A DNA stretch of 64,000 nt, taken from the NCBI GenBank assembly GCA_023249195.1, contig JAHFDB010000002.1, positions 13,911 through 77,910 on the forward strand. Direction: 5' to 3'. Positions 19,457 to 52,058 of the stretch are shown here, one piece after another; position 1 is the stretch's first letter; every line of letters begins with the position of its first letter. The notes below the pieces were generated by a model that had not been told where the DNA came from, did not search any database, and saw only the letters and a program-made list of their open reading frames with translations. Position numbers and translations under genes: made by a program. The DNA is from a bacterium (lineage in GTDB: Bacteria > Margulisbacteria > Marinamargulisbacteria > SXXA01 > JAHFDB01).

Positions 19457-22346
<2,890 letters not shown>

Positions 22347-22350
<4 letters not shown>

Positions 22351-23069
22351 TTAAGAGTAAAGTGATCACCAAGATAAAATTTTCTTGCAACAGAATTATT
22401 GGCAATTTCAGTAGAATTTCCAGACAAAAGTAATTGTCCATTATGAATCAAGTAAGCTCTATCTGTAATAGCCAACGTTTCTCGTACATTATGGTCAGTA
22501 ATAATGACGCCTAGATTACGATTTTTAAGGGCCACTATAATCGTTTGGATTTCAGCAACTGCAATAGGATCAATACCTGCAAATGGCTCATCCAACAAAA
22601 TAAACGAAGGGTTTGTGGCCAAAGCACGGATGATTTCAACACGTCTTTTTTCCCCCCCAGACAACTCAACTCCCTTAGCTTTTTTTAAATGCAAAAGCCC
22701 CATCTCACCCAATAGTTGATCCAACCTAGAACTAAACTCCGATTTAGGAATAGTACCCAGAATTTCCCACAAAATATAAATATTTTCTTCCACTGTAAGC
22801 TTCTTAAAAATCGACGACTCTTGAGGAAGATACCCTAAACCCATCCGTGCCCGCTGAAACATAGGCACCTTAGTAATATCTTCGGAATCAAGAAAAACTT
22901 GCCCACTATCTGGCTTAACAAGTCCAATAATCATATAAAAAGTGGTTGTCTTACCCGCACCATTAGGGCCCAAAAGCCCCACAATTTCACCTCTATTCAT
23001 TGTAAGGCTCACACCATCTACAACAAGACGTCCATGATAGGATTTTTTCAGATCTTTAATTTCAATCAT
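22347..23069 (-). CDS. lptB: LPS export ABC transporter ATP-binding protein LptB
   Basis: 240 aa with Walker A GPNGAGKTT and an LSGGEKRRV signature. Confidence 0.85.
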
Positions 23070-24154
23070 GTACGAGTCACCCTTACAGGGTTCAATACGA
23101 AAGTAGAAGGAATTTCTTGAGTGGATTTCTGAAAATTAATCATCTTCACACCATAAACATAGTCTTCCTCGACAAACTGCCTCATGTTACCTAAAGAATC
23201 AAGCACCTCTTTAATACGCCGAGAGCAGGTTTCAATACCAGTCAATACTTGTTTTTCAGGAGATCCCTCAGAAAAGTGTTTATGCAAAGCCTGAGATCCT
23301 ATCAAAATACTTGTCAAAGGATTTCTAATATCATGATTCAAAGCAACTTGTACCTGATCAATCAACTTTTCTTTCTCTTCTTGAATAATAGGATCTGTCA
23401 GCTGTATTTTTGAATGGGACAAAGGCATAGAAGGACCCATGCGCAACAAACGTTTAAACCTCAACTGTATATCATGAGACACCAAAGGCTTCAAAATATA
23501 GTCATCCACCCTCTCTAAAAATACGCCTTTAGAACCAGAAAGATCATCTAAAGATATCGCTAACACCCGTTTAATATGGGTATATCGTTCAGACAAAACA
23601 GCTAAACTCTCATTCAAAAAGCCTTCAGATAATGCTGCATCGAATACCACTACAGAAGGAAAAGCGGATTCAATCAACGCAATCCCCTCTTCTTTTTTAG
23701 AAGCCCTCAAAACCAAAAACCCTTGAGAAGCAAGACTCTTTACAAGAGCTTCTTGTAATTCATAAGAAGCGGTTAGTACCACAATTTTTGTCATGGGAAC
23801 CTTGAGTAACTTCTTAACGCGAAACAACAAGTCGAATTTATAAAAAGGTCTAAGTATATAATCTTGACCACTTAGTAACAAAAGGCTCGCCTCCTGAGAC
23901 AATTCCGAAGAAGAAGCAATATAGAGAATAGGGATTGAACACGAAACAATCGCCTGACGCATATCAGAAAACAAAGAATCCTCAAGGCAAAAACCTACAT
24001 CTAACAAAACAAGATCAATAGAGTGTTCTTTTAAGGCCGTCCGGACAGCCTCGCCAGTATAAGCTTCAAAAATCGAAAAACCTTCTTGAAAAAGAGCTGC
24101 CTTTATTTGATCGGAATAACAAGGAGAAGAATCTACAACAAGAATGGCTGTCAT
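23066..24154 (-). CDS. tandem receiver (REC-REC) protein with a C-terminal HisKA/DHp phosphoacceptor domain and no HATPase domain
   Basis: Two CheY-like receiver segments (VVDSS...LLDVGF and VVLTAS...VVFDA...ILKPL), then an H-box NHDIRNPLTSI. The ORF ends without an ATP-binding domain and overlaps lptB by 4 nt. Confidence 0.6.
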   Translation of the reverse strand: MTAILVVDSSPCYSDQIKAALFQEGFSIFEAYTGEAVRTALKEHSIDLVLLDVGFCLEDSLFSDMRQAIVSCSIPILYIASSSELSQEASLLLLSGQDYILRPFYKFDLLFRVKKLLKVPMTKIVVLTASYELQEALVKSLASQGFLVLRASKKEEGIALIESAFPSVVVFDAALSEGFLNESLAVLSERYTHIKRVLAISLDDLSGSKGVFLERVDDYILKPLVSHDIQLRFKRLLRMGPSMPLSHSKIQLTDPIIQEEKEKLIDQVQVALNHDIRNPLTSILIGSQALHKHFSEGSPEKQVLTGIETCSRRIKEVLDSLGNMRQFVEEDYVYGVKMINFQKSTQEIPSTFVLNPVRVTRT

Positions 24155-26487: not shown

Positions 26488-27507
26488 TCATTCCTCCTTT
26501 TCCATTAAAATAAGCGCTTCTCCGCCACTCGCGCTTTCTCTAATCTTAGTATCTAACTCTTGTGAAATTTGGGGATGCTGTTTTAAAAACTGTTTCGCAG
26601 ACTCGCGACCCTGTCCCATTCTTTCACCATTAACAGAAAACCAAGTTCCACTTTTTTCAACAAAATTAAGTCCCACTGCCAAATCCAATAAATCTCCTTC
26701 TCGTGAAATCCCTGTACCAAATTCAATTTCCAAATCGGTCGTTTTAAAAGGGGAAGCTACCTTATTTTTAACAATCTTTACTCTCACTCTATTACCCGTA
26801 ATATCAACCCCCGATTTAATCGAGTCAATGCGCCGTATATCAATTCGAATGGTTGAATAAAACTTTAAAGCTCTACCTCCTGGAGTGGTTTCTGGACTGC
26901 CAAACATAACCCCAAGCTTATCCCTTACTTGATTGACAAAAATTACGATAGTATTCGATTTACTGACAATACCAGTTAATTTTCTCAAGGCTTGAGACAT
27001 AAGCCTCGCCTGCATACCCATTTGAGGATCCCCCATATCTCCTTCAATTTCAGATTTTGGAACCAAAGCAGCTACGGAATCAACTACAATCAAATCAACA
27101 GCGCCTGATCGAACCAAAGTTTCAACTATTTCTAAGGCCTGCTCTCCATAATCAGGCTGAGACAAGAGTAATCCTTGCAAATTAACGCCCAGCTTCTCAG
27201 CATAAGCAGGGTTAAGTGCATGCTCAGTATCAATATAGGCACAAACTCCGCCTTGCTTTTGCGTTTCAGCTACAGCATGTAATGACAGGGTTGTTTTTCC
27301 TGAAGACTCAGGACCAAAAATCTCAATGATTCGCCCTCTGGGATACCCCCCCACACCCAAGGCCAAATCCAACGACAAAGCTCCTGAAGAAATAGTCGAA
27401 AATGACATGTTGGGCGACTCCCCAAATTTCATAATCGCACCCTTTCCATGAGCCTTTTCAATCTGTGAAATTGCAAAATTTAAAGCCTTTGCTTTATTCT
27501 CATCCAT
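26488..27507 (-). CDS. recA: recombinase RecA
   Basis: 339 aa with GPESSGKTT Walker A. Confidence 0.96.
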
Positions 27508-30984: not shown

Positions 30985-31060
30985 TGGTGCGCTGTGCTGG
31001 AATCGAACCAGCGGCCCACTGATTAAGAGTCAGTTGCTCTACCGACTGAGCTAACAGCGC
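30985..31060 (-). tRNA. tRNA-Lys (anticodon CUU)
   Basis: Manual fold of the minus strand: GCGCUGU-UA-GCUC...GAGC-A-ACUGA-CUCUUAA-UCAGU-GGGCC-GCUGG-UUCGAUU-CCAGC-ACAGCGC-A-CCA. It has a 7-bp acceptor, TPsiC loop UUCGAUU and an encoded CCA. Confidence 0.88.
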
Positions 31061-31138: not shown

Positions 31139-32047
31139 TTGAACAACAGCAAAAATATTGACTTCTTACTAAGGGGTATTGCGATGTTAGATCTATACAA
31201 GTCTATACAAAATTCTATTGGAGGCCTAAACTCGGCACTGCGTATTGCCATTTCGAATGCAGATAACTTCAACACGCCTGGATTCAAATACACAACAGCT
31301 TCCTTTACATCTATTTACAATCAATCTATTACCTCTGGAACAGAAAGTACCAACCCTGTAACTATCGGAGGGAGCATGACCCTAGGCTCTACCAACACCG
31401 ATTTTAGTCAGGGAAATATCAGCATAGGAACGGCCCTCGACTCTGCCATTGTTGGAGAAGGATTCTTAATTTTATCCAAATCCGGCACAGAGTTTACCGA
31501 ATCATCCCCCAAAGTATTTACACGTCTCGGAAGATTTAAAGTAGATTTCGCAAACCAGTTTTTAACAGACACCTTTGGAAGAAAGGTCTTTGGATATAAA
31601 GTAGATGCAAATGGAAATCCTGTCAGTAGAACGTTGGTTCCTCTTCAAACCGATGGAAACACAGATGTAGGCTTCACAGCCGGAGGCATTCTTGTTACAA
31701 ATTTTCAAAAAAATAAAGACGACATCGCCAGCGGGGTAAATCCGCCGACAGCCACCGTCCCTCTTTACAGGCTTGCGCTCACCACATTCACAAACAAACA
31801 GGGATTAATTCCCGTTGAAGGAACAGCCTACAGTACTACCCAAGCCTCTGGACAACCCCTAGAACCTGGGAGTGCAGAGGAAGGCCCTTATGGAAACATT
31901 TTAGGGTCTAGCTTAGAATCATCAAACATAGACGTAGCCAGAATTGCTCTCGATATGGCCCTTTTAAATCGAGGCTATTCTGCTGTTCAGGGGTTAGTAG
32001 ACGATCTAAACAAAATTCTTTCCGGTTTAATTAGCAAGCTTCAATAA
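31139..32047 (+). CDS. flagellar basal-body rod/hook family protein (FlgE/FlgF/FlgG-like)
   Basis: N-terminal rod motif (MLDLYKSIQNSIGGL...ISNADNFNTPGFKY) and a C-terminal Flg_bbr_C-like motif (LESSNIDVARIALDMALLNRGYSA). Start may be the internal Met at about 31184. Confidence 0.65.
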   Translation: MNNSKNIDFLLRGIAMLDLYKSIQNSIGGLNSALRIAISNADNFNTPGFKYTTASFTSIYNQSITSGTESTNPVTIGGSMTLGSTNTDFSQGNISIGTALDSAIVGEGFLILSKSGTEFTESSPKVFTRLGRFKVDFANQFLTDTFGRKVFGYKVDANGNPVSRTLVPLQTDGNTDVGFTAGGILVTNFQKNKDDIASGVNPPTATVPLYRLALTTFTNKQGLIPVEGTAYSTTQASGQPLEPGSAEEGPYGNILGSSLESSNIDVARIALDMALLNRGYSAVQGLVDDLNKILSGLISKLQ

Positions 32048-32567
32048 CGCCATACTCCCCTTTTTTATCCAAGGGGTAGATTACGTTAATGACCTCTGTT
32101 TCAATATTCTTGAACATAAGGAAAGGCCCACCAGCCTCTTCAAGAAAGCTCAGGGCATCTTCCGCTGTCATAGGCTTTGTCACATAAAGAATCTTATCTT
32201 GAGTCGATTTTTTAGGTGCTTTTTTAACTTCAGAAACAGAAACAGACCTTTGAGTACTATCCCTTTTATGAGACCTTAATTTCTCTTTATGTTTTTTAAG
32301 CTGAATAACCATTTTTTCATAAACCCCATCAATACTTGCGTACATATCTGCTGATACATGTTCAGCTCTTATAACTGCACCAGAAACTTTGGCAACAATT
32401 TCTGCCACACACCTTGAATCATCTGAAGCTGTATCACTTTGATTAAGCTCAGCAGAAACACTTAAAACGTGGTCAAAATATCTATCTAACTTCAATAGCT
32501 TTTTCTCTGCATATGCCTTTAATGCCACTGTAATATTCACATGATGCGTTTTAACCGTTATTTTCAT
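32031..32567 (-). CDS. hpf: ribosome hibernation promoting factor, long form
   Basis: 178 aa with an N-terminal RaiA/YfiA domain plus a C-terminal dimerisation domain (INVIYPLDKKGEYGVIE). Confidence 0.88.
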   Translation of the reverse strand: MKITVKTHHVNITVALKAYAEKKLLKLDRYFDHVLSVSAELNQSDTASDDSRCVAEIVAKVSGAVIRAEHVSADMYASIDGVYEKMVIQLKKHKEKLRSHKRDSTQRSVSVSEVKKAPKKSTQDKILYVTKPMTAEDALSFLEEAGGPFLMFKNIETEVINVIYPLDKKGEYGVIEAC

Positions 32568-32647
32568 AAAAAGCCCTCACTTGTTATTTAATTCTATGTG
32601 ATACTATCATAGTGGTATTCTAATGTGAAAGAAAAAGGAGTATTACT

Positions 32648-33607
32648 TTGGGACTAAAAGCTGTGATTCTTGCTGCCGGCAAGGGAACTCGGATGAAGTC
32701 AGAGATTTTAAAGGTTGTTCACCAAGTAGCAGGAAAACCGATTGTCAACTATGTGCTCGATACAGTGCTCAATATTGGGGTCGAGGATGTCTATTTAGTG
32801 GTAGGACACCAAGCCAATCTAGTACAACAAAATATCTGCCATGCCAATGCTCACTTTGTGATTCAAGAAGACCAAATGGGAACAGGCCATGCCGTCATGC
32901 AAGTACAGCCCCTCATTCCTATAGACAATAACGATACCATAATGGTTCTCGCTGGCGACTGCCCTTTAATCGAAGAAGAAACACTACAGAATCTATTGGC
33001 AATCCACCAAGAATCAAACGCACTCGGCACTATTTTAACAGCCATCATGGAAAACCCTGGAGGCTACGGAAGAATCTTAAGAGGCCAGATGGGAACCGTC
33101 ATTGGAATCAAAGAAGCGAAAGATTGCACAAGCGAGGAAAAAGAAATCCAAGAAATCAATACAGGAGTATATATTTTTGACTCGCAAGCTCTATTTGAAA
33201 ATCTTCAATATGTCGATACCAATAATACCCAAAAAGAATTTTATCTGACAGACGTGATTCATCTAATCAAAGAATCTGGAGGCGCTATTGCAGCGTATTG
33301 TGCAGAAGACTCCAATGAAGTAATTGGAATTAATACCAGAGAAGACCTAGCAAATATTAGCAAAATTATCTACCAAAAAAACAATATTCATTTTATGCAA
33401 GAAGGTATCACCATCATAGACCCCAACTCAACCTTTATTGATTCCACAGTAAAAATAGGAGGAGACACTATCATTTCGCCTTTCACCATTATTAAAGGCC
33501 ATACCGTTATAGGCACCCATTGCAAAATAGGACCACACACTTTTATCGAAAATGGTACTATTGTCAATGAGACAAACCTACCTCCATTTACCTATATCCA
33601 ACACTAA
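32648..33607 (+). CDS. GlmU-like sugar-1-phosphate nucleotidyltransferase with the uridyltransferase domain and only the first turns of the LbH domain (no acetyltransferase catalytic region)
   Basis: Motifs VILAAGKGTRM, QMGTGHA, EINTG and YLTD. Ends after about 60 aa of hexapeptide repeats. TTG start with an AAGGAG Shine-Dalgarno. Its stop overlaps the next gene's ATG (TAATG). Confidence 0.8.
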   Translation: MGLKAVILAAGKGTRMKSEILKVVHQVAGKPIVNYVLDTVLNIGVEDVYLVVGHQANLVQQNICHANAHFVIQEDQMGTGHAVMQVQPLIPIDNNDTIMVLAGDCPLIEEETLQNLLAIHQESNALGTILTAIMENPGGYGRILRGQMGTVIGIKEAKDCTSEEKEIQEINTGVYIFDSQALFENLQYVDTNNTQKEFYLTDVIHLIKESGGAIAAYCAEDSNEVIGINTREDLANISKIIYQKNNIHFMQEGITIIDPNSTFIDSTVKIGGDTIISPFTIIKGHTVIGTHCKIGPHTFIENGTIVNETNLPPFTYIQH

Positions 33608-34809
33608 TGCAGGAGGCTTTCTTAGGAAGAAACAAACTTGTTCAAGACCTGAAACAACATAAGATTTTATATGAACTTTCAAAAGCACTTCACTCCACTT
33701 TACATGAGTCAAAGCTATCTCAGCTTATTGTGGAAAGTATCTCTCTTATTTTTAATGCGAACTCTCAGTTGTGGCTTTTAGATCCAGGAAAAGAGACATT
33801 CACCTTAAAAGGAAGCAAACCTCCCACAAAAAATGAGAAAACATTGTCTTCAAAATGGTTTGAAGTCCTTATGCAAGGGCGCCCAATTCATTACGACCCC
33901 GTTAAAAACTACCTTCTATTTGCTTTAAACAACAAAAACCAACCCCTAGGGATTCTAGAAATTTTTTTAAATACCTCTCAAAAAGTAAGCCAAGATTCCT
34001 TAAATTTTTTACTCGAAGTCATGGACCCCATTATCCTAGCACTGGCCAATGCTAAGCATTATTCTCGCCTCGAAAAATGGGCGCTTCTAGATGGCCTGAC
34101 CGGACTTTTTAACCGTATCTACTTCCAAAAAACACTGGGCATTGAGATCGCGCGCGCAAAGAGACAGGAATACCCTCTTTCACTACTCATGATCGACCTT
34201 GATTTTTTCAAACATGTCAACGATACCTACGGACATCCTATCGGAGATGAGGTATTAAAAAGAATCAGCTGGCATTGTAGCCATTCCTTAAGAAAATCAG
34301 ATATCTTATCTCGTTATGGTGGAGAAGAGTTTATTGGACTATTGGTAGATTGCAATGGAATAAATGCATCTAGAATCGCAGAGAAAATTAGGTCAAAAAT
34401 AGAAAATTGGACATTATTTATTATCGAATCCACATCTCAACACCATCCCTATATTCTCATAGAAAAAATATCCTCCAAATATGAGTGGCTTACGCCCATG
34501 CCCTCAAATAAATCAGAAGCTATGTTAAACTCCCTTAAAAAATTGAGCCTTTCTGATACACATGTATTAAAAACAAAATCACTCATCTATTATAAAATCA
34601 AGGTCACTGTAAGCATTGGAATCGCATCCTATCCGGAAGACTTTTCCCACAGTTCAAAAGGGCTTGATCTTGTAAACGAAGGTGCAGAAGAAAAAGATCT
34701 TTTAGTATATATGGCCGATAAAGCCCTCTATAAAGCAAAAAAAGCGGGCAGAAACAAAGCATTATTATATCAAATTATCCAAAAAGGAGTCTCTAATGAG
34801 CACGCTTGA
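33607..34809 (+). CDS. GGDEF-domain diguanylate cyclase with an N-terminal GAF-like sensor region
   Basis: Active-site RYGGEEF preceded by an RKSD I-site. There is an insertion of roughly 60 aa between the core strands. Confidence 0.8.
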   Translation: MQEAFLGRNKLVQDLKQHKILYELSKALHSTLHESKLSQLIVESISLIFNANSQLWLLDPGKETFTLKGSKPPTKNEKTLSSKWFEVLMQGRPIHYDPVKNYLLFALNNKNQPLGILEIFLNTSQKVSQDSLNFLLEVMDPIILALANAKHYSRLEKWALLDGLTGLFNRIYFQKTLGIEIARAKRQEYPLSLLMIDLDFFKHVNDTYGHPIGDEVLKRISWHCSHSLRKSDILSRYGGEEFIGLLVDCNGINASRIAEKIRSKIENWTLFIIESTSQHHPYILIEKISSKYEWLTPMPSNKSEAMLNSLKKLSLSDTHVLKTKSLIYYKIKVTVSIGIASYPEDFSHSSKGLDLVNEGAEEKDLLVYMADKALYKAKKAGRNKALLYQIIQKGVSNEHA

Positions 34810-36475
34810 ACTGCAAAAAAAAGTCCCTCGCTATCGGTCCATCAGAACGACTATCTCAAACTTAAGATGGCAACTTGGATTGAGCACCTTTTTTACAGAT
34901 AAGGTCCCTTTCTCTTTCAGTACAGGCACATGTTTTGCATCAAAAATAAGCACCCTAGCCCACACATGTCATGGCCATTGGGTTGAACTTGGGGCAGGAA
35001 CAGGAATTTTATCTCGACATATTTTAGATAAACTCAAACAAGACTTTTCTGAAGACTATGCAAACATTCGTATTTCAGTTTCCGACTATTCTGAGTCTGC
35101 AGTCGCTTCGTTAAAAAACGCAGGGCTTTTTTCTGAACATCCTAACACTGATTTTCCCATTATAAATGCGCATGCCCCTCATTTTAGCACTAAAGAATGG
35201 CCTAGGGTTGTTATTTTGTCCTATTTACTTGATTCAATGGACTGCCGCCATATTGAAATAAACAACAACACTGTCTCTGAAATTCAAGTAAAAACAAGAA
35301 TCAAAACAACAGCACCTATTATTGATGTCAGTGTTTTTCCACCAAAAATTCGTAATCCAGAAGAAATTAAAAAACTTTTCAATGGAAAGGATATTCATCT
35401 TCAAAAAAAGATAGCCCCTTTTCTCCTTCCTTATCTCAAAGAAAGCTATGTCAAAGTTCCTTTAAACAAAACAGATATGTCAAAAAAAGAAAAAGAAGAT
35501 CTCCTTTCTTTTGCAAAAACTCTGCCCAAAACAACCCTTCGTTTTAATTATTCTATGCACTTTTCAAATATGCTCAAAGAGTTACTTGCCAGGGACCAAG
35601 AATCACTCATTATTATCAACGATTTTGGGTATCCCTTGGCCGATGTCGCCCCAAAAGTAAGTGCACTAAGTACTACCTATGGCACTGTTTCATGTCACTC
35701 AGTATACTTTCCCTACCTACGCCATATTGCAACTGACTGCAAAGCGACTACATTCACGACCCTCAACCCCCCTGGAAACACACAGATGATGGTCATCTAC
35801 AAAGGGAAAAGAGAGGCCTACATCCAAGAGCAATGTCTCTCCATTTTTAAAAACAAAGAATACGATACAATGCACACGCTTGCTAAAACCGTTTTTAAAC
35901 TAAAAAAACCAACAAAAAACACTCACTCCCATCTAGAGCTGCAATGGAAAAATATAGCCCCGCTTTATAAGGAAGATTATTTTGTTACCATGTCTTTTGC
36001 AAACGTTGCCTATAAAAACAAGCTCTATTCTAAAGCAATCGAGTGCCTAGAGAAAATTTTACCCTCTTATGCCTCAATTTCTATTCCTAGGTTACATCTT
36101 TTAGGCTATTGTTATCTAGAAAATGGAGATTTTAAGAATGCAGAAAAAGCATTCAAAAAAGCACTCAATTTATCCCTAGACTACCCCGTATCCTATCTCA
36201 ACATTGCCCATCTCTATCTCAAAAAAAGAGAACTTGAAAGCTATCAAAAAGCCATTAAGACCTATATTGAAAAAGCAGATAGGCCTTCGTTCGGAGAACA
36301 CATGATCACCTTAGCCCTTTTATATGTTCAAACAGGCGATAGAGAAACATCAAGCGCTCTTACTGAATTCATTTGCACTGCCTACACGCAAGACAAATCT
36401 CTCTTCTCTGAATCCCTTTATCGAAAAGCGCTAGGAATTCAAAATCTTATTGCCCAGATTCAACCGACGACCTAA
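34796..36475 (+). CDS. class I SAM-dependent methyltransferase (MidA/DUF185-like N-terminal) fused to C-terminal TPR repeats
   Basis: Motif I HWVELGAGTGILSRHIL, with TPR-like helices in the last roughly 150 aa. Overlaps the GGDEF gene by 14 nt. Confidence 0.6.
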   Translation: MSTLELQKKVPRYRSIRTTISNLRWQLGLSTFFTDKVPFSFSTGTCFASKISTLAHTCHGHWVELGAGTGILSRHILDKLKQDFSEDYANIRISVSDYSESAVASLKNAGLFSEHPNTDFPIINAHAPHFSTKEWPRVVILSYLLDSMDCRHIEINNNTVSEIQVKTRIKTTAPIIDVSVFPPKIRNPEEIKKLFNGKDIHLQKKIAPFLLPYLKESYVKVPLNKTDMSKKEKEDLLSFAKTLPKTTLRFNYSMHFSNMLKELLARDQESLIIINDFGYPLADVAPKVSALSTTYGTVSCHSVYFPYLRHIATDCKATTFTTLNPPGNTQMMVIYKGKREAYIQEQCLSIFKNKEYDTMHTLAKTVFKLKKPTKNTHSHLELQWKNIAPLYKEDYFVTMSFANVAYKNKLYSKAIECLEKILPSYASISIPRLHLLGYCYLENGDFKNAEKAFKKALNLSLDYPVSYLNIAHLYLKKRELESYQKAIKTYIEKADRPSFGEHMITLALLYVQTGDRETSSALTEFICTAYTQDKSLFSESLYRKALGIQNLIAQIQPTT

Positions 36476-38492
36476 TATCCAAAACGTTCATTCTCAAACG
36501 ATCGTGGAACTTTTTACGTCCTTTTCGTCTAAATTGTTCTAAGGTAAAAATAACATCATATCGAGCATCAGCATCATTAGACCGAATTCGGCAAAATTTC
36601 TCCCATAAACCAAACCCTACGGCATTAATATGTTGAACAGGGAAACGACCTGACTGATCATGGGAATTTAATACAAAAAATTCTAGATGAGGCGTCCTAG
36701 CTTCTTGATATTTATTACCAAATGGCCGTGCCTTACTCACAAAACAATTCCCCAAGAAAAAGACCGGATAATCAAACTCTTGTCCATAAGGAGTGAGTTG
36801 TTCAAGTTTTTTAACCAATCCACTATTGATTTGAGACAGTTCCAGAGACTCTAAAACCTCATAAGAAAAATGAAATTGGTCCTCAGGAATAGTCAAAATA
36901 GCTTCGCGAATTAATAAAAGAAACTCATCCAGATCCCGCTTATGCAAAGTAAATCCGCACGCCTGAGCATGTCCGCCAAAAGCATTCACAACACGTTTAC
37001 CCATCTGGGTTTCTACTTCTGTCTGAAAAAGTTTGCGATTATGTTTTTTTTCAAATAAATCTGAAACGCCATCGACCAACGCATACATGTTAATCGTGGG
37101 AATGCTTCTTACGGAGCCTCTGAGATCATCACTTCCTGTGTACTCTGTGATAATAATAGCCGGACGAAGGAAGCGGTCTTTCAATCTATCTGCATCGATA
37201 CCAATAACACCAGGATTCCAGTTCTTTCCTTTAACAATAATAACCCTATCATGCTCAACATCAACCTGATCTTCCACCATATTATCAATTTCATCTTCAA
37301 TCTTACTGGTCATAAACTTGCGTTTCTCGTTAATATCCTCAACCAAAGAGGCCTCATCCAAAGCAGAAACAATATCCGTCACCACAGGACTAATAGAGGG
37401 CACTGCTTTTTTAGCCTTATCTAGCTCTAATACATAGTTGAATTCCTCTAAAACCTCAGAGGCTTTTTGGGCATTTAGCTTGCCCATTCCAAGCAAAAGC
37501 AAATCAACAACAATGCGAGAGTCTGGAATGCCAGCTTCACGATCACCAATGCGCCCAGGAGCATTGAGTCGAGGAACAATAGTGCGTCCAATATCATTAG
37601 AACGAAGCTCAGAAAGCCCATTAGAGCTCACTTCTTTTAAAGCCCTCAGCCCTTCCATTTTTGTCCTATTGAGGGCTTCTATTCCTTTTTTCACCATAAT
37701 TCTATTAAGCGGGTTCAAAAATGACATTCTGTCTGAAATAGTACCTAAGGTAGCAACAGACAAAAAGAAATCCATTAAATAATCAGGAACAGGTTTTTTC
37801 ATTGTATCAAAAACAGCCAAAACAAGTTTAAAAGCAACTCCCGCACCAGCCAAACTTTTTTCAAAACTAACATCGGTATACCGATGCGGATTCACAATCG
37901 CATAAGCAGGAGGAACTTCTCTACCCAAAATATGGTGATCACAGATAATAACATCAATATTCTGGCTATTGGCGTATATGGTTGACTCCACATCTTTACT
38001 ACCACAGTCAGAGGTAATAATAAGCTTGGTGCCCGCTTGCTTTGCCTCGTCAATAATACGAGTCTGTAAGCCATGCCCCTCACGACATCGTGTCGGGAAA
38101 TCATAGTGAACGCGCCCGCCCAAATGACGTAAGCCAGCTGTTATGATAACAGTACCTGTAATGCCATCTGCATCGGGGTCTCCGTTAACTACAATCATTT
38201 CATTCGCATCTATCGCAGATTTAATGCGACGGGTGGCTTTTTCTAGATCTTCCTTTGAAGTAATTTTGTCAAAATCAGTAATTAATGACTCAGAAGGATT
38301 AATAAAGTGTTTGAGCACCTCAATCTGACCAGCCCCTATCTTTCGAGAAAGAAGCAGTTTAACCAAAATCGGATCTAAATGAAGTTGCGAAGAGATATCT
38401 GAAACTTGCTGAACATTAAACTGAGGAAAGTGCCATCTTTCCTTCATTATGGCTTGAAACGGTTTTTTCATATTAATTAGGGACCTACACAA
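36447..38492 (-). CDS. recJ: single-stranded-DNA-specific exonuclease RecJ
   Basis: DHH family motifs GDPDADGITG and ICDHH, plus a DHHA1 region. 681 aa. Confidence 0.85.
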   Translation of the reverse strand: MCRSLINMKKPFQAIMKERWHFPQFNVQQVSDISSQLHLDPILVKLLLSRKIGAGQIEVLKHFINPSESLITDFDKITSKEDLEKATRRIKSAIDANEMIVVNGDPDADGITGTVIITAGLRHLGGRVHYDFPTRCREGHGLQTRIIDEAKQAGTKLIITSDCGSKDVESTIYANSQNIDVIICDHHILGREVPPAYAIVNPHRYTDVSFEKSLAGAGVAFKLVLAVFDTMKKPVPDYLMDFFLSVATLGTISDRMSFLNPLNRIMVKKGIEALNRTKMEGLRALKEVSSNGLSELRSNDIGRTIVPRLNAPGRIGDREAGIPDSRIVVDLLLLGMGKLNAQKASEVLEEFNYVLELDKAKKAVPSISPVVTDIVSALDEASLVEDINEKRKFMTSKIEDEIDNMVEDQVDVEHDRVIIVKGKNWNPGVIGIDADRLKDRFLRPAIIITEYTGSDDLRGSVRSIPTINMYALVDGVSDLFEKKHNRKLFQTEVETQMGKRVVNAFGGHAQACGFTLHKRDLDEFLLLIREAILTIPEDQFHFSYEVLESLELSQINSGLVKKLEQLTPYGQEFDYPVFFLGNCFVSKARPFGNKYQEARTPHLEFFVLNSHDQSGRFPVQHINAVGFGLWEKFCRIRSNDADARYDVIFTLEQFRRKGRKKFHDRLRMNVLDIRSSVESGQ

Positions 38493-46745: not shown

Positions 46746-47363
46746 ATGACAGAAAAACTCACCCCCATGCAGGCACGTGTCTATACCTTCATTTGTGAGT
46801 TTGCTCAAGAAAACGGGTTTCCCCCTTCCTATTCTGAGATGGCTAAAAAATTCAATTTTTCCTCGGACGGCACTATCAGAACCTATCTGGAACACCTAGA
46901 AAAGAAAGGCTATATCCAACGCCTAGGCCAAGCCAGAGGCCTCAAACTATTAGTGAATCCCCAAACAAAACAAGGACAGGCGATCCCTATCGTCGGTAAA
47001 ATAGCCGCAGGCCCACCTAATGCCGCTATAGAGACACATGAAGGAACACTTGCAGATATTCCTCAGCTTCATCCAGAGAAAGGCCGTATGGCCCTTAAAA
47101 TCAAGGGGGACAGCATGCAAGACGCGGGCATTCTCGACGGAGACCTTGCCATCATTCAAAAAGATGTCCCTGTTCCCAACGGTCACATAGGCGCCGTTTT
47201 TATAGACGGAACAGCCACTCTAAAGCGCCTCTTCTACGAAAAAGACAAGGTCAAACTTCAACCCGAGAACACCGCCTACGAACCCCTCTACCTCGACAAA
47301 ACCAACCCCAATACCCACATTATCGGACGCCTAATCGCAGTAGTACGAAATCAGATTTTCTAA
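46746..47363 (+). CDS. lexA: LexA repressor (S24 self-cleaving)
   Basis: N-terminal wHTH, an AAGPP cleavage site, GDSM Ser and LKR Lys. Confidence 0.9.
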   Translation: MTEKLTPMQARVYTFICEFAQENGFPPSYSEMAKKFNFSSDGTIRTYLEHLEKKGYIQRLGQARGLKLLVNPQTKQGQAIPIVGKIAAGPPNAAIETHEGTLADIPQLHPEKGRMALKIKGDSMQDAGILDGDLAIIQKDVPVPNGHIGAVFIDGTATLKRLFYEKDKVKLQPENTAYEPLYLDKTNPNTHIIGRLIAVVRNQIF

Positions 47364-48406
47364 GAAACCAAGGCCTGCATCACCCTAAAAATAAGTTTTC
47401 GATTTTTCTTAAACAACACCAAGCCACTCCCAATCAAAAGAACACTCAATCCGACCATTAAAACCTGCTGCATCCCCGTAGATATGTATAAAAGCACAGA
47501 CAAAATACCCAATACAGCCGTCACAAAATAACTAAACAAAGCAATCTGCTTTTGAGTCAAACCAGAATGCAGCAATTCATGATGAAAGTGTCCCTTATCC
47601 GGCTTAAAAATAGCCTGTTTATTTTTAAATCGCCTCAGAATAGCGTATAGCATGTCTAAAATAGGAATTCCCAAAACCAAGATGGGCACAAAAACACGCC
47701 AAGACAAATCCCCTGCCATCACCCCCCTTACGGACACCAAACCCAGCATATAGCCCAAGAACATAGACCCTGTATCCCCCATAAAAATACTCGCCGGAGG
47801 AAAATTAAAACACAAAAACCCCAAAGTTGAACCCATAACAGCCAGCATAAGCACCATCGAAGTCATGTGCCCAGACTGGAAAGAAACCAAGGCCAAAACA
47901 GCGGCTGCAATAAAAGAAATGCCCGCAGCCAAACCATCTAACCCATCAATCAAATTAATCGTATTAATAATACTAATCACAAAAAATATGGTCACAGGAA
48001 CGGCCATAATTCCCAAAGAAAACGAGCCCACAAAAGGAACAGAAAGCGTCGATAACACCACCCCTTGGCTCACCGGAATCCAGGCCATAAACACTTGCCC
48101 AAACAACTTCACCAACGGCCGAATGCACAAAACATCATCAATAATACCCAAAACCAAAATAAAAAAAGCGCCCAACAACATGCCACGAAAATCCAAACTA
48201 AAGGCATATTGACCAATGGTTTGCACACTTAACAAAGCACCCAAACAAATGGCAACCCCGCCCAGGTGTGGAATAGGCGATGTATGAACTTTTCGGTCAG
48301 ACGGAGGATCGATAAACCCAAATTTAAGCGATACTTTTTTAACAACAGGCGTAATAATAAGACTAGAAATAAAAGCAAGAAAAAAAACAGAAAAAATAGA
48401 GGTCAT
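47360..48406 (-). CDS. UDP-GlcNAc:undecaprenyl-phosphate GlcNAc-1-phosphate transferase (WecA/TagO, GT4 polyprenyl-phosphate transferase family)
   Basis: Motif FIDPPSDRKVHTSPIPHLGG, with more than nine TM helices. ATG at 48406 is preferred over GTG at 48421. Confidence 0.75.
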   Translation of the reverse strand: MTSIFSVFFLAFISSLIITPVVKKVSLKFGFIDPPSDRKVHTSPIPHLGGVAICLGALLSVQTIGQYAFSLDFRGMLLGAFFILVLGIIDDVLCIRPLVKLFGQVFMAWIPVSQGVVLSTLSVPFVGSFSLGIMAVPVTIFFVISIINTINLIDGLDGLAAGISFIAAAVLALVSFQSGHMTSMVLMLAVMGSTLGFLCFNFPPASIFMGDTGSMFLGYMLGLVSVRGVMAGDLSWRVFVPILVLGIPILDMLYAILRRFKNKQAIFKPDKGHFHHELLHSGLTQKQIALFSYFVTAVLGILSVLLYISTGMQQVLMVGLSVLLIGSGLVLFKKNRKLIFRVMQALVS

Positions 48407-48427
48407 TATTAAATTATACACAAAAAA

Positions 48428-50262: not shown

Positions 50263-51651
50263 ATGGACGAATCTTTAAAACCTACGCTTTTAACATTGTG
50301 GCAGCAAGAACTCCACTCAAACCCTAAGTTAGCTGAAAATTCAAAAGAACTTTTGAACACCTTACTTCATACCATTGAAACAAAAACCATTCCCTCTATT
50401 TCTGCCCAAAGCCTTGAGCCCATACTCGTCATGTGGCATCAATTACTGAAACAACAGCATCATGCGGGACTCAGCGTCAAAGATACAGCGATGCTGCTTC
50501 TTTCTCTCAAAACAACCCTATCACGCAGTATGGAAGACGGCACGCTAAACAATGAACCCAAACTTACTACCCTAGTAGATATGCTCAGTGTCTTTTCTTT
50601 TGAACTGTATAGCGCGCAACAGGAGCAGGTTATTGAGAAACAAAACAATCAAATTGAATATCTTCAAACCAATCGCACATTACCTCCTTACAACACTCTT
50701 TTAGGGGAAAGCCCTCAGATGCAAGCCGTGTACAAGGCCATGGACTTAGTGTTAGACAATGACATTACAGTCTTACTTCAAGGCGAAAGCGGCACAGGAA
50801 AAGATGTCATTGCGACAGCCATTCATGAACACTCAAAACGCAATAAAAAACCATTTATTACCCTCAATTGTGGAGCCATTCCCAAAGAGCTTATCGAATC
50901 TGAATTATTTGGGCATGAAAAAGGATCCTTTACGGGGGCTCAAGAACGTAGGCTAGGGAAATTTGAACTCGCCGATGGGGGGACTCTGTTCCTAGACGAA
51001 ATTGCCGAGCTTCCTCTGGATCTTCAAGTCAAACTATTACGTGTCTTGCAAAACAAAGAAATTGAACGGGTAGGTGGAAGCCAAAAAATATCAATCAATG
51101 CGCGTATTATTGCCGCCACTAACCAAGACCTGAACACCGCCGTAAAAAAGGGGGCCTTTCGGTTAGATCTGTTCTATAGGCTTAACGTATACCCCATTCA
51201 TATTCCTTCCTTAAGGGAACGCAAAGAAGACATTGTGATGTTAGCCCTTCATTTCCTGCATCTATATAGCCACCAATTTAAAACCCCAGCCCAAACCCTC
51301 ACCGCTGACGCCCAACAGTTTTTACTCGCTCAAAAATGGGAAGGCAATGTCAGAGAATTAGAGAATATGATGCAACGTGCTGCCTTGCTATCAAAAACCA
51401 AGGATGTCAGCGCGGATATCCTCTCATGGCAGCCTGGCAAACTTACCCAAGCTACCCCCGCACAACCGTTAGCACTTCCTCTAAGAACCATTGTCCCTTT
51501 GGCCACACTCGAAGCCCAGGCTCTAACCACAGCCCTTAAAATTACAGGGGGAAACATCAAACAAGCCGCCATAGAGCTAGGAATTTCACGCACCACTTTC
51601 TATAACAAGGCCAAGCTTTATAGCCTTCCACTCGATGAGGCAAAAAACTAA
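50263..51651 (+). CDS. sigma-54-dependent transcriptional activator (AAA+ EBP) with a non-receiver N-terminal domain
   Basis: Walker A GESGTGKD, a GAFTGA-type segment (GSFTGA), an ESELFGHEKG motif and a C-terminal Fis-type HTH. The N-terminal 160 aa are not a REC domain. Confidence 0.85.
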   Translation: MDESLKPTLLTLWQQELHSNPKLAENSKELLNTLLHTIETKTIPSISAQSLEPILVMWHQLLKQQHHAGLSVKDTAMLLLSLKTTLSRSMEDGTLNNEPKLTTLVDMLSVFSFELYSAQQEQVIEKQNNQIEYLQTNRTLPPYNTLLGESPQMQAVYKAMDLVLDNDITVLLQGESGTGKDVIATAIHEHSKRNKKPFITLNCGAIPKELIESELFGHEKGSFTGAQERRLGKFELADGGTLFLDEIAELPLDLQVKLLRVLQNKEIERVGGSQKISINARIIAATNQDLNTAVKKGAFRLDLFYRLNVYPIHIPSLRERKEDIVMLALHFLHLYSHQFKTPAQTLTADAQQFLLAQKWEGNVRELENMMQRAALLSKTKDVSADILSWQPGKLTQATPAQPLALPLRTIVPLATLEAQALTTALKITGGNIKQAAIELGISRTTFYNKAKLYSLPLDEAKN

Positions 51652-52058
51652 ATATTTTGTAATTTAAGTATTTCGGTTTTATTGCCAGAACCCAAAATAC
51701 TGATCGCGTACACCCCCGTATCTGCACTGTAGGTATAGGAAATTTTCCCAGAATCATCCGTATCTGTATAGGTTTTCCCGGTGAAAGGATTGGTAGGCGT
51801 TTTGCCCAACTCCCCGTCTCCTTGCAATAAACTCGACAACTCACTCAAAGACAAGGAACCCGTAGGATAACTCCCCTTACTGAGATAATAAGACTCTAGA
51901 GCCACCTGAAGCGTATGCCCAACCGCCTTAACAGAGGTTTCCTTAGCCTTATTTTGAATCAAAGAAAAATTGGGAAACACAATGGCGCTAATAATCCCAA
52001 TAATCGCAATAACCAACACCAACTCTATCAAAGTAAAGCCTCGTTGTTTTTCTCTCAT
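51648..52058 (-). CDS. type IV pilin / T2SS pseudopilin-like protein (prepilin N-terminal methylation motif)
   Basis: N-terminus GFTLIELVLVIAIIGII. Confidence 0.8.
   Translation of the reverse strand: MREKQRGFTLIELVLVIAIIGIISAIVFPNFSLIQNKAKETSVKAVGHTLQVALESYYLSKGSYPTGSLSLSELSSLLQGDGELGKTPTNPFTGKTYTDTDDSGKISYTYSADTGVYAISILGSGNKTEILKLQNI

What the first reader, a model, noticed from the sequence alone, without database searches (positions are those of the whole stretch)
32648..33607. glmU-like gene encodes only the uridyltransferase half and is translationally coupled to a GGDEF gene
The ORF aligns collinearly with GlmU through the nucleotidyltransferase domain and the first LbH turns. It stops (TAATG overlap) where the acetyltransferase active-site region should begin, and the next codon starts a diguanylate cyclase. 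Either GlcNAc-1-P acetylation is done elsewhere or not at all, or the acetyltransferase half was displaced by insertion of the GGDEF-MTase pair.
Basis: partly seen in the sequence, partly recalled or inferred. Interest (0 to 1): 0.5.

Follow-up and report, generated by a model that had tools for sequence, protein, structure and literature searches.

The report
Naturally short, uridyltransferase-only GlmU in Margulisbacteria
This gene is a genuine, conserved short form of the cell-wall precursor enzyme GlmU that keeps only its uridyltransferase half, so this whole group of uncultured bacteria (Margulisbacteria) must acetylate glucosamine phosphate some other, still unidentified, way.

Summary
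ORF 32648..33607 (319 aa) matches GlmU only over E. coli residues 6-316. It stops before every acetyltransferase active-site residue, and its TAA overlaps the ATG of a GAF-like/GGDEF gene (TAATG).

It is not a frameshift, a pseudogene or a recent displacement:
- Two independent assemblies carry the same junction.
- No acetyltransferase remnant exists in any frame of the 64 kb window.
- All 120 listed database homologues (48-100% identical) are 248-365 aa, nearly all 301-337 aa, and end at the same point.
- In the 122-row family alignment, all 12 uridyltransferase residues taken as critical are identical in every row that covers them.
- The four-turn beta-helix stub is as conserved as the catalytic domain.

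The predicted structure (pLDDT 93) superposes best on the engineered E. coli GlmU-Tr331 truncation, which is described as carrying only the uridyltransferase activity.

The downstream gene differs among relatives: GGDEF, a methyltransferase-TPR gene, trpE/pabB-like, rpsF, dapA or NIF3. So the truncation predates the GGDEF neighbour, which is limited to a subclade.

RecA places the window in Candidatus Margulisiibacteriota, a diderm with LPS-export genes that needs UDP-GlcNAc.

The source of GlcNAc-1-P could not be found with these tools. Monofunctional GlmU forms are already described in other phyla, so this is a new member of a known kind. Interest is moderate.

The parts
32635..32640 (+). 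Shine-Dalgarno AAGGAG, 7 nt upstream of the TTG start of the short glmU
   Evidence: Read directly from the sequence. Homologues align from residue 1, which supports the TTG start (P0005 1-319 against 1-319).
32648..33607 (+). Short glmU: monofunctional GlcNAc-1-P uridylyltransferase-type gene, 319 aa, stop codon included
   Evidence: AF2 model pLDDT 93.3. The best mutual structural match is E. coli GlmU-Tr331, 1fwy_B.
32648..33325 (+). Nucleotidyltransferase (pyrophosphorylase) domain, aa 1-226. It carries LAAGKGTRM (32669-32695), GTGHA (32879-32893), LAGDCPL (32948-32968), GGYGRI (33059-33076), EINTG (33152-33166) and EFYLTD (33236-33253).
   Evidence: PF00483 covers aa 4-221. The equivalents of E. 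coli R18, K25, Q76, G81, T82, D105, G140, E154, N169, E195, Y197 and N227 are the same residue in every family-alignment row that covers them: 10 in 122/122 rows, R18 in 120/122 with 2 N-terminal gaps, and Y197 in 122/122.
33326..33400 (+). Long alpha-helical arm linking the two domains, aa 227-251
   Evidence: The AF2 model has a helix at 231-251. Mean pairwise identity within the family is 59%.
33401..33562 (+). Left-handed beta-helix stub of about four turns, aa 252-305. It is inferred to be the trimerisation module.
   Evidence: PF00132 Hexapep covers aa 268-301. Short strands recur at 255-318 in the model. Mean pairwise identity is 56%, equal to the catalytic domain. The consensus is GVTIxDPxxTFIDSTVxIGxDTIIxPF.
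33563..33604 (+). Poorly conserved C-terminal tail, aa 306-319. It ends at about E. coli residue 316, upstream of R333, E349, K351, H363, Y366, N377, N386, K392 and S405.
   Evidence: Mean pairwise identity is 25%. Acetyltransferase residues are absent.
33605..33609 (+). TAATG stop/start overlap between the short glmU and the GGDEF gene
   Evidence: The junction is identical in two independent ENA assemblies, L006 and L007. Orthologous junctions overlap by 7 nt (L008) and 11 nt (L013).
33607..34809 (+). Diguanylate cyclase, 400 aa: a divergent GAF-like N-terminal domain plus a GGDEF domain. It has an RxxD I-site (RKSD, 34291-34302), a GGEEF motif (34318-34332) and a lineage-specific insertion of about 47 aa (34426-34566).
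   Evidence: PF00990 at 2.4e-39. TIGR00254 at 1.5e-44. GAF_3 is weak, E = 0.046. Remote homologues carry GAF domains.
34796..36475 (+). Methyltransf_28 (MidA/NDUFAF7-like) plus TPR protein, 559 aa. It overlaps the GGDEF stop by 14 nt and is the third gene of the putative operon.
   Evidence: Orthologues follow the short glmU in L013 (after a GGDEF gene) and in L096 (directly, with no GGDEF gene).
32031..32567 (-). Ribosome hibernation factor (hpf), divergently transcribed from the short glmU. It is the most conserved neighbour of the family.
   Evidence: PF02482 and PF16321. An hpf gene lies immediately upstream and divergent in all eight relatives of the 50-68%-identity clade examined except L095.

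Best explanation
The gene encodes a naturally monofunctional, GlmU-derived GlcNAc-1-phosphate uridylyltransferase (UTP + GlcNAc-1-P -> UDP-GlcNAc + PPi). It has three parts: the complete GlmU pyrophosphorylase domain, the helical arm, and about four turns of left-handed beta-helix that probably hold the enzyme together as a trimer. It ends before the acetyl-CoA/GlcN-1-P site. In effect it is a natural counterpart of the engineered E. coli truncation GlmU-Tr331. This short form is the ancestral, selected state in a large clade of Candidatus Margulisiibacteriota, not a local accident. The acetylation step must therefore come from an unlinked enzyme or from salvage of GlcNAc. The enzyme could be a stand-alone LbH acetyltransferase acting on GlcN-1-P, or a GNA1-like GNAT acting on GlcN-6-P followed by a mutase. 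In this genome and a subclade of relatives the gene heads an operon with overlapping reading frames: short glmU, then a GAF-like/GGDEF diguanylate cyclase, then an MT28-TPR protein. That makes co-expression likely. A functional link to c-di-GMP is only a possibility. Shown here: the domain content, the absence of acetyltransferase residues, family-wide conservation, variable downstream genes and the structural match. Inferred: catalytic activity and substrate, trimerisation, operon status and the external source of GlcNAc-1-P.
For: (1) Extent of the match. GlmU HMMs, PDB chains and tblastn all cover only E. coli residues 6-316. (2) Family. All 120 listed homologues, 48-100% identical, are 248-365 aa, and nearly all are 301-337 aa. 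Several are labelled Margulisiibacteriota or Marinamargulisbacteria. Most of the 122 aligned sequences end at E. coli positions 316-320. A more distant clade labelled Rifle-/Marinamargulisbacteria, 38% identical, is also exactly 319 aa and ends in a stop followed by non-coding DNA. (3) Selection. Twelve uridyltransferase catalytic or substrate-binding residues are the same in every alignment row that covers them. The beta-helix stub is 56% identical on average, the same as the catalytic domain, while the last 14 residues are only 25% identical. (4) Not an artefact. Two independent assemblies are identical across the junction, 4962/4963 and 1976/1976 bases. There is no match to E. coli GlmU 317-456 in the window, nor to residues 320-456 in 183 kb of related loci. 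(5) Structure. The AF2 model has pLDDT 93.3 and pTM 0.88. GlmU structures match at query-normalised TM-score (TMq) 0.88-0.91. The only targets that are also fully covered are the 331-residue E. coli GlmU-Tr structures: 1fwy_B has TMq 0.90, target-normalised TM-score (TMt) 0.89 and rmsd 2.2 A. Tr331 is described as carrying only the uridyltransferase activity (PMC4358021, citing Pompeo et al. 2001). (6) The truncation is independent of the neighbour. The downstream gene is GGDEF (window, L008, L013), MT28-TPR (L096), trpE/pabB-like plus GATase (three contigs), rpsF, NIF3 or dapA. (7) Need for the product. The window encodes LptF/G and LptB and an MraY/WecA-type GT4. A related genome encodes BamA, and another a PBP transpeptidase.
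Against: No enzyme assay exists for any member. Substrate specificity is inferred from residue conservation alone. I could not search a whole Margulisbacteria genome. A second, full-length GlmU or a stand-alone acetyltransferase elsewhere can therefore be neither shown nor excluded. If a full-length paralogue exists, this gene would be accessory rather than housekeeping. The signature motif has Leu where canonical GlmU has Pro24 (and direct reading). The protein scores below the curated cut-offs of every GlmU equivalog model, as expected for a truncated form. Trimerisation was not modelled.
Confidence: 0.8

Rival explanations
1. Sequencing or assembly frameshift, or a recent pseudogene. On this reading the real gene is a full-length bifunctional glmU whose 3' half was lost from the reading frame.
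For: Only the a priori expectation that bacterial GlmU is bifunctional and about 450 aa. GlmU equivalog models are matched over two thirds of their length.
Against: No trace of residues 317-456 exists in any frame of the window. The junction is identical in two independent assemblies. More than 120 homologues down to 48% identity stop at the same place and keep every catalytic residue. The beta-helix stub is as conserved as the catalytic domain. The next gene starts on the stop codon.
Confidence: 0.02
2. The acetyltransferase half was displaced by insertion of the GGDEF-MTase pair.
For: In the window the GGDEF gene begins exactly where the acetyltransferase region would continue. The GGDEF gene is present in some relatives and absent in others, so it has moved in or out at this position.
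Against: Relatives whose short glmU is followed by trpE/pabB-like, rpsF, NIF3, dapA or the MTase alone end at the same residue. So does the argB-argF-linked clade at 38% identity. The truncation therefore predates the GGDEF adjacency and is independent of it. No acetyltransferase remnant lies downstream of the GGDEF-MTase pair.
Confidence: 0.03
3. The short enzyme has shifted substrate. It might activate GlcN-1-P (with N-acetylation then at the UDP-sugar level), Glc-1-P or GalNAc-1-P. UDP-GlcNAc would then be made by another enzyme such as a UAP1/NagU-type uridyltransferase.
For: A 2026 preprint reports bacteria that combine NagU with truncated GlmU variants (10.64898/2026.06.23.733835). Family-specific substitutions exist: Pro24 to Leu, and Tyr103 to Ala. 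Ala at position 103 is also seen in the Gram-positive GlmU chains aligned. The acetyltransferase is missing, so the canonical substrate supply is unexplained.
Against: The residues taken as sugar-contacting (my assignment from memory of the GlmU structure papers: T82, G140, E154, N169, N227) are unchanged in all 122 members. The best HMM matches by a wide margin are the GlmU models (1e-112, against 1e-23 for the next nucleotidyltransferase families other than archaeal GlmU). No PF01704 (UDPGP) protein was seen in the window, although the window is only a fraction of the genome.
Confidence: 0.1
4. The short GlmU and the diguanylate cyclase form a functional module. UDP-GlcNAc synthesis or its intermediates would then be coupled to c-di-GMP production, by protein contact or through the cyclase's GAF-like sensor domain, and the overlap would reflect stoichiometric co-production.
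For: Stop/start overlaps of 1, 7 and 11 nt are conserved in three genomes whose GlmU proteins are only 62-64% identical. The cyclase has an intact GGEEF motif and an I-site. There are precedents for links between the UDP-GlcNAc pathway and cyclic-dinucleotide signalling: NagU-DacA in S. aureus and acetyl-CoA inhibition of EAL phosphodiesterases in P. aeruginosa.
Against: The adjacency is restricted to a subclade. Eight other contexts lack it, including one (L096) where glmU is followed directly by the MTase, and one (L095/P0404) where the related cyclase lies elsewhere on the contig. The short glmU also overlaps unrelated downstream genes (trpE/pabB-like, by 4 nt), so overlap is a general feature of these compact genomes. 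No interaction was tested.
Confidence: 0.1

Closest known systems
Bifunctional bacterial GlmU (E. coli b3730; NCBIfam TIGR01173 / NF010934; PDB 1hv9, 1g97, 9dqf)
   Same: The pyrophosphorylase domain, helical arm and first beta-helix turns are collinear. Identity is 37% to E. coli and 43% to the S. aureus structure. All uridyltransferase active-site residues are retained. TMq is 0.88-0.91.
   Different: It lacks about 140 C-terminal residues, including every acetyltransferase residue (R333 to S405). It scores below every curated equivalog cut-off. The gene context also differs: divergent from hpf, not next to glmS (for E. coli).
Engineered E. coli GlmU-Tr331 (PDB 1fwy/1fxj; Brown et al. 1999 and Pompeo et al. 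2001, the latter cited in PMC4358021)
   Same: The domain content is almost the same. The window protein aligns to residues 6-316 of the 331-residue construct. 1fwy_B gives the best mutual structural coverage (TMq 0.90, TMt 0.89, rmsd 2.2 A). Tr331 is described as carrying only the uridyltransferase activity.
   Different: Tr331 is a laboratory construct, whereas this is a natural form conserved across a lineage. It ends about 15 residues earlier and has its own short variable tail.
GlmUCc (Ccan_15070) and other monofunctional GlmU-like uridyltransferases of Bacteroidetes (Renzi et al. 2015, PMC4358021)
   Same: It is a natural bacterial GlcNAc-1-P uridyltransferase with no acetyltransferase activity. 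It raises the same question of where GlcNAc-1-P comes from.
   Different: GlmUCc is reported to be only about 27% similar to its closest bifunctional relative. The Margulisbacteria protein is 37-45% identical to canonical GlmU and keeps a beta-helix stub, so it is probably an independent truncation. The two were not compared directly because no GlmUCc sequence was available here.
N-terminal-only GlmU variants noted in a survey of species that encode NagU (e.g. Polystyrenella longa; bioRxiv 10.64898/2026.06.23.733835)
   Same: A truncated GlmU with only the uridyltransferase domain. The authors infer 'an unidentified acetyltransferase'.
   Different: Those cases were found among genomes that encode NagU. 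Margulisbacteria are not mentioned, and two literature searches found nothing on GlmU or UDP-GlcNAc synthesis in this phylum. Whether these genomes have NagU is unknown.
Eukaryotic-type pathway (GNA1 + AGM1 + UAP1/NagU)
   Same: The logic is the same: acetylation and uridylation are carried out by separate proteins.
   Different: UAP1/NagU belongs to a different family (PF01704), whereas the protein here is GlmU-type (PF00483 plus Hexapep). No GNA1-like gene was identified in the window.

Membership tests
Bifunctional GlmU (TIGR01173 / NF010934 equivalogs) | N-terminal pyrophosphorylase domain with the LxxGxGTxMxxxxPK signature and catalytic residues R18, K25, Q76, D105, E154, N169, N227 | tested here: met
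   LAAGKGTRMKSEILK is at aa 8-22. All listed residues are present and unchanged across the 122 family members. The single deviation is Pro24 to Leu.
Bifunctional GlmU (TIGR01173 / NF010934 equivalogs) | C-terminal LbH acetyltransferase domain with R333, E349, K351, H363, Y366, N377, N386, K392, S405 | tested here: not met
   The protein ends at about E. coli residue 316. These columns are empty in the window protein and its family, whereas full-length representatives show REKHYNNKS. No match to residues 317-456 exists anywhere in the window.
Bifunctional GlmU (TIGR01173 / NF010934 equivalogs) | Score above the curated whole-protein cut-off of an equivalog model | tested here: not met
   373.7 bits against 450 (NF010934). 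338.3 bits against 366.85 (TIGR01173). All other GlmU models are also below their cut-offs.
Bifunctional GlmU (TIGR01173 / NF010934 equivalogs) | Homotrimer built around the LbH domain | not testable with these tools
   Only a monomer was modelled. The stub is conserved at 56% identity, which fits a structural role.
Monofunctional, GlmU-derived GlcNAc-1-P uridyltransferase (natural Tr331-like form) | Complete GlmU-type uridyltransferase domain, no acetyltransferase site, and a genuine stop codon conserved among homologues | tested here: met
.
Monofunctional, GlmU-derived GlcNAc-1-P uridyltransferase (natural Tr331-like form) | UDP-GlcNAc pyrophosphorylase activity, and no GlcN-1-P acetyltransferase activity | not testable with these tools
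   Inferred from residue conservation and from the reported properties of E. coli Tr331.
GlmUCc-type Bacteroidetes monofunctional uridyltransferase | Orthology to Ccan_15070 | not tested
The reported 27% similarity of GlmUCc to bifunctional GlmU, against 37-45% here, argues for an independent origin.
Naturally short sugar-1-P nucleotidyltransferases with an LbH tail (RmlA-long TIGR01208, GDP-mannose pyrophosphorylase, ST0452-like) | Best sequence or structure match to those families rather than to GlmU | tested here: not met
   rmlA_long scores 80.6 bits against a cutoff of 320. Arch_glmU scores 136.5 bits against a cutoff of 292.1. GlmU scores 374 bits. Structural TMq is 0.60-0.64 for ST0452, AGPase and VTC1, against 0.88-0.91 for GlmU.
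UAP1/NagU (UDPGP, PF01704) uridyltransferases | UDPGP fold and family match | tested here: not met
   There is no PF01704 hit. The hits are PF00483, PF12804 and PF00132.
GGDEF diguanylate cyclase (downstream gene 33607..34809) | GGDEF domain with a GG[DE]EF active-site motif, and optionally an RxxD inhibitory site | tested here: met
   PF00990 at 2.4e-39 and TIGR00254 at 1.5e-44. GGEEF is at aa 238-242 and RKSD at aa 229-232, and both are conserved in orthologues. Activity was not testable.

The most novel reading that the evidence does not exclude
Margulisbacteria as a phylum may have no GlmU-type acetyltransferase at all. They would then make GlcNAc-1-P for peptidoglycan and lipid A by an enzyme or route not yet described in bacteria, for example a GNA1-like GlcN-6-P acetyltransferase with a GlcNAc-phosphate mutase, or an unrelated enzyme. 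In one subclade the remaining uridyltransferase would be wired to a GAF-GGDEF cyclase, so that envelope-precursor synthesis and c-di-GMP signalling are co-produced.
Probability: 0.3. Interest if true: 0.65.

Novelty: new member of a known kind. Interest (0 to 1): 0.4.

Why it matters
GlmU is treated as a universally bifunctional, essential bacterial enzyme and as an antibiotic target. Here a whole clade of an uncultured phylum, sister to the Cyanobacteria and with an LPS-bearing outer membrane, retains only the uridyltransferase half under clear purifying selection. This adds a deep, independent case to the Bacteroidetes and scattered examples. Automated annotations call these proteins 'bifunctional' (names), which over-predicts the pathway in metabolic reconstructions. 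The family also offers a large, diverse set of genomes in which the 'unidentified acetyltransferase' flagged in a recent preprint could be found by phylogenetic profiling. The conserved beta-helix stub is a natural experiment on the minimum needed for a stable, presumably trimeric, uridyltransferase.

Tried and rejected
1. Remnants of the acetyltransferase half. I ran tblastn with E. coli GlmU 300-456 and 320-456 against the window in all frames, and against 183 kb of related loci. Nothing beyond the stub itself was found.
2. A stand-alone LbH or GNAT acetyltransferase in the window. Pfam scans of 45 ORFs between 19.4 and 62.9 kb found none.
3. A 313-316 aa GNAT lies 3.4-5.4 kb downstream of the short glmU in L013 and L096. 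Its best NCBIfam matches are RimI models, all below cut-off, and tsaB lies two genes downstream (after a GT2 gene). It is absent from the window. It is probably rimI and is only a weak lead.
4. The genome-contig scan used peptide patterns specific to the window protein. It returned only five loci and not the source genome.
5. The metagenome-contig scan with the family alignment chose generic GlmU patterns. It returned mostly ordinary full-length GlmUs (67 of 80). It was useful only as a background sample, in which five loci carry clean short genes.
6. Search against representatives clustered at 50% identity. Half of the top 150 are 'short', but these are interspersed with full-length proteins in a star-like NJ tree. 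Many may be gene fragments kept apart by clustering-coverage rules, so I draw no conclusion from them.
7. The N-terminal extension of P0132 was checked as a possible fused acetyltransferase. It has no domain.
8. Rfam gave nothing in the hpf-glmU spacer, and the promoter and terminator scans did not exceed chance.
9. Extending the source contig beyond the window failed. Only short ENA contigs were returned.
10. Literature searches for GlmU or N-acetylglucosamine together with Margulisbacteria found no relevant paper.
Full report
**1. Observation**

The + strand ORF 32648..33607 encodes 319 aa. It starts at TTG, 7 nt after an AAGGAG at 32635-32640. Public gene calls start at the in-frame GTG at 32663, giving 314 aa. 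Its TAA stop (33605-33607) shares one base with the ATG of a 400-aa ORF, 33607..34809. A third ORF, 34796..36475, overlaps that one by 14 nt.

Pfam finds NTP_transferase at aa 4-221 and one Hexapep unit at aa 268-301. The next gene is a GGDEF protein, and the third is a Methyltransf_28 plus TPR protein.

All GlmU equivalog models of NCBIfam match strongly (up to 1e-112), but only over their first two thirds and below their curated cut-offs. PDB GlmU chains align to E. coli residues 6-316, and the engineered 331-residue E. coli construct (1fwy) aligns end to end.

**2. Not an artefact or pseudogene**

- tblastn with E. coli GlmU (taken from NC_000913) finds residues 6-316 at E = 1.7e-60. Residues 317-456 find nothing significant in any frame of the 64 kb.
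- Two metagenome assemblies from different samples, ERZ27279942 and ERZ27279977, carry the same sequence across the junction: 4962/4963 and 1976/1976 identical bases.

**3. A conserved short family**

- All 120 listed database homologues (48-100% identical) are 248-365 aa, and nearly all are 301-337 aa. The few with names are labelled Candidatus Margulisiibacteriota or Marinamargulisbacteria, and many are mis-named 'bifunctional'.
- In a 122-sequence alignment with E. coli GlmU, most members end at E. coli positions 316-320.
- The residues I take from memory of the GlmU structural literature as critical for uridyl transfer and sugar binding are R18, K25, Q76, G81, T82, D105, G140, E154, N169, E195, Y197 and N227. 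Each is the same residue in every row of the alignment that covers it.
- None of the acetyltransferase residues (R333, E349, K351, H363, Y366, N377, N386, K392, S405) has a counterpart. Full-length representatives show the REKHYNNKS pattern at these positions.
- Mean pairwise identity within the family is 56% in the catalytic domain, 59% in the helical arm and 56% in the beta-helix stub, but only 25% in the last 14 residues. The stub is therefore maintained rather than decaying.
- A more distant clade from MAGs labelled Marinamargulisbacteria and Riflemargulisbacteria, 38% identical, is also exactly 319 aa. Its stop is followed by about 750 bp with no listed ORF.

**4. Structure**

AlphaFold2 with a 55-sequence family alignment gives pLDDT 93.3 and pTM 0.88. 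The model has the expected Rossmann-like domain, a long helix at 231-251 and short repeated strands to the C-terminus.

Foldseek against the PDB returns GlmU structures at query-normalised TM-score (TMq) 0.88-0.91. The only hits in which the target is also fully covered are the truncated E. coli GlmU-Tr structures: 1fwy_B has TMq 0.90, target-normalised TM-score (TMt) 0.89 and rmsd 2.2 A, and 1fxj_A has TMt 0.87. Other nucleotidyltransferases with beta-helix tails (ST0452, ADP-glucose and GDP-mannose pyrophosphorylases) reach only about 0.6 at 14-21% identity.

The protein is therefore GlmU-derived and does not belong to another naturally short transferase family. Tr331 is described in the literature as carrying only the uridyltransferase activity (PMC4358021, citing Pompeo et al. 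2001).

**5. Genomic context and the GGDEF gene**

The most conserved neighbour is a divergently transcribed ribosome hibernation factor gene (hpf). It lies immediately upstream in the window and in seven of the eight relatives of the 50-68%-identity clade examined. The exception is L095, which has purM-purN-glmU-dapA. The 38%-identity clade has argB-argF-glmU.

The downstream gene varies:

| Context | Gene after the short glmU |
|---|---|
| Window | GGDEF, 1-nt overlap |
| L008 (62% id) | GGDEF, 7-nt overlap |
| L013 (64% id) | GGDEF, 11-nt overlap |
| L096 (68% id) | MT28-TPR gene directly, no GGDEF |
| Three contigs (P0105, P0030, P0085) | Chorismate-binding plus GATase pair |
| L010 (P0117) | rpsF |
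| L011 (P0112) | Convergent NIF3 gene |
| L095 (P0021) | dapA |

All of these short glmU genes end at the same point. The truncation therefore predates the GGDEF neighbour and is independent of it, which refutes the 'displaced by insertion' idea.

The cyclase orthologues form a small group confined to this subclade. They share a GAF-like N-terminal domain (weak GAF_3, E = 0.046; remote homologues carry clear GAF domains). They also share an RxxD I-site and a GGEEF motif. The window copy has an extra insertion of about 47 aa.

Overlapping stop/start codons, and the absence of terminator-like sites between the three genes, make an operon likely. However, the short glmU also overlaps unrelated downstream genes in other genomes. 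Overlap alone therefore does not argue for a functional link.

**6. Organism and need for the product**

RecA from the window (26488..27507) has its best named matches in Candidatus Margulisiibacteriota and Marinamargulisbacteria, at 72-80% identity. The window encodes LptF/G and LptB, an MraY/WecA-type GT4, a group-1 glycosyltransferase, a flagellar FlgE/F/G-like protein and a type IV pilin-like protein. Related contigs encode BamA and a PBP transpeptidase. These are diderm bacteria that should need UDP-GlcNAc for both lipid A and peptidoglycan.

**7. Mechanism proposed**

- Shown: a complete and conserved GlmU-type uridyltransferase module with a conserved beta-helix stub; no acetyltransferase site; conservation across the lineage.
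- Inferred: the protein catalyses UTP + GlcNAc-1-P -> UDP-GlcNAc + PPi, probably as a trimer held together by the stub. GlcNAc-1-P would be supplied by an unlinked enzyme or by salvage.

No candidate acetyltransferase was found in the window or in about 180 kb of related loci. The only recurrent acetyltransferase near the locus in relatives matches RimI models best, has tsaB two genes downstream, and is absent from the window. Whole genomes could not be searched with the tools available, so this remains the main open point. A second, full-length glmU elsewhere in these genomes cannot be formally excluded either.

**8. Comparison with what is known**

Natural monofunctional GlmU-like uridyltransferases have been characterised in Capnocytophaga and inferred in many Bacteroidetes, where they are linked to GlcNAc auxotrophy (PMC4358021).

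A 2026 preprint notes N-terminal-only GlmU variants in a few species. It explicitly infers an unidentified acetyltransferase, and it reports a uridyltransferase (NagU) that binds the c-di-AMP cyclase DacA (10.64898/2026.06.23.733835). Another 2026 preprint links flux through early UDP-GlcNAc and peptidoglycan steps to c-di-GMP levels through acetyl-CoA (10.64898/2026.06.11.731730).

Two literature searches found nothing on GlmU or UDP-GlcNAc synthesis in Margulisbacteria. In a background sample of 80 metagenomic GlmU loci, 67 were full length (>=410 aa to the stop). Five carried clean short genes with no C-terminal half within the fetched locus, so the phenomenon is sporadic elsewhere too.

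**9. Verdict**

This is a new, lineage-wide member of a known kind, the monofunctional GlmU-derived uridyltransferase. It is a natural equivalent of GlmU-Tr331.

Interest is moderate (0.4). It corrects a systematic annotation error and offers a good comparative data set for finding the missing acetyltransferase, but the concept is not new. The link to c-di-GMP is unproven and confined to a subclade.

Noticed in passing
window 34796-36475 (+); L013 4561-6240; L096 2886-4547: A 553-559 aa Methyltransf_28 (MidA/NDUFAF7-like) plus TPR protein recurs downstream of the short glmU. It follows the GGDEF gene in the window and L013, and follows glmU directly in L096. Its function is unknown, and the window and L013 copies are only 34% identical.
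   Followed up: partly
window 34426-34566 (aa 274-320 of the GGDEF protein): An insertion of about 47 aa lies inside the GGDEF catalytic domain. It is absent from the orthologues in L008 and L013, and Pfam matches only positions 1-118 of 161 of the domain model. Its effect on activity is unknown.
   Followed up: partly
window 32031-32567 (-) and 32568-32647: The ribosome hibernation factor gene is divergently paired with the short glmU across an 80-bp spacer. The pairing is conserved in most relatives of the clade. No Rfam element and no above-chance promoter signal were found in the spacer.
   Followed up: partly
window 31139-32047 (+): A 302-aa protein has flagellar rod/hook-like termini. 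Pfam barely detects it (FlgE/F/G D1 domain, E = 0.057). A similar gene sits upstream of hpf in a relative. It looks like a divergent flagellar component in an uncultured phylum.
   Followed up: no
window 36447-38492 (-) against 34796-36475 (+): recJ (DHH, DHHA1 and RecJ_OB domains) converges on the MT28-TPR gene. As listed, the two ORFs overlap by 29 nt at their 3' ends.
   Followed up: no
window 30985-31060 (-): A tRNA-Lys (CTT) lies between the group-1 glycosyltransferase gene and the flagellar-like gene. It is the only Rfam gathering-threshold hit in the 64 kb.
   Followed up: no
Relatives' contigs next to the hpf-glmU locus (L010 1-9138): Giant ORFs of 7055, 3079 and 3053 aa, with no Pfam hits on record, lie within a few kb of the hpf-glmU locus in three related contigs.
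   Followed up: no
L014 2113-3075, L019 6830-7846, L047 7931-8926, L081 5160-6113, L089 620-1699: These are clean short glmU genes of 317-359 aa, each with an in-frame stop and no C-terminal half within the fetched locus. They come from metagenome contigs that lack the hpf context. They point to further independent or distantly related uridyltransferase-only GlmUs of unknown taxonomy.
   Followed up: partly
L096 6298-7248; L013 8980-9582: A 313-316 aa GNAT whose C-terminal half matches RimI models best (below cut-off) is followed by a GT2 gene and tsaB. It lies 3.4-5.4 kb downstream of the short glmU in two relatives and is absent from the window. It is a weak candidate for the missing acetyltransferase and more likely rimI.
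   Followed up: partly
window 21244-23069 (-), 47360-48421 (-), 51648-52058 (-): The window carries the LPS export genes lptF/G and lptB, an MraY/WecA-type GT4 and a type IV pilin-like gene. These are consistent with a diderm envelope. The cinA-recA-rny-ymdB-lptB-lptF order is mostly conserved in a 1.92-Mb related contig (L097), where the window's response-regulator/HisKA gene (23066-24154) between ymdB and lptB is missing.
   Followed up: no
Database annotations of the family: Many members of this 301-337 aa family are named 'bifunctional UDP-N-acetylglucosamine pyrophosphorylase/glucosamine-1-phosphate N-acetyltransferase' by JGI and NCBI, although they lack the acetyltransferase site. This is a systematic over-annotation.
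   Followed up: yes
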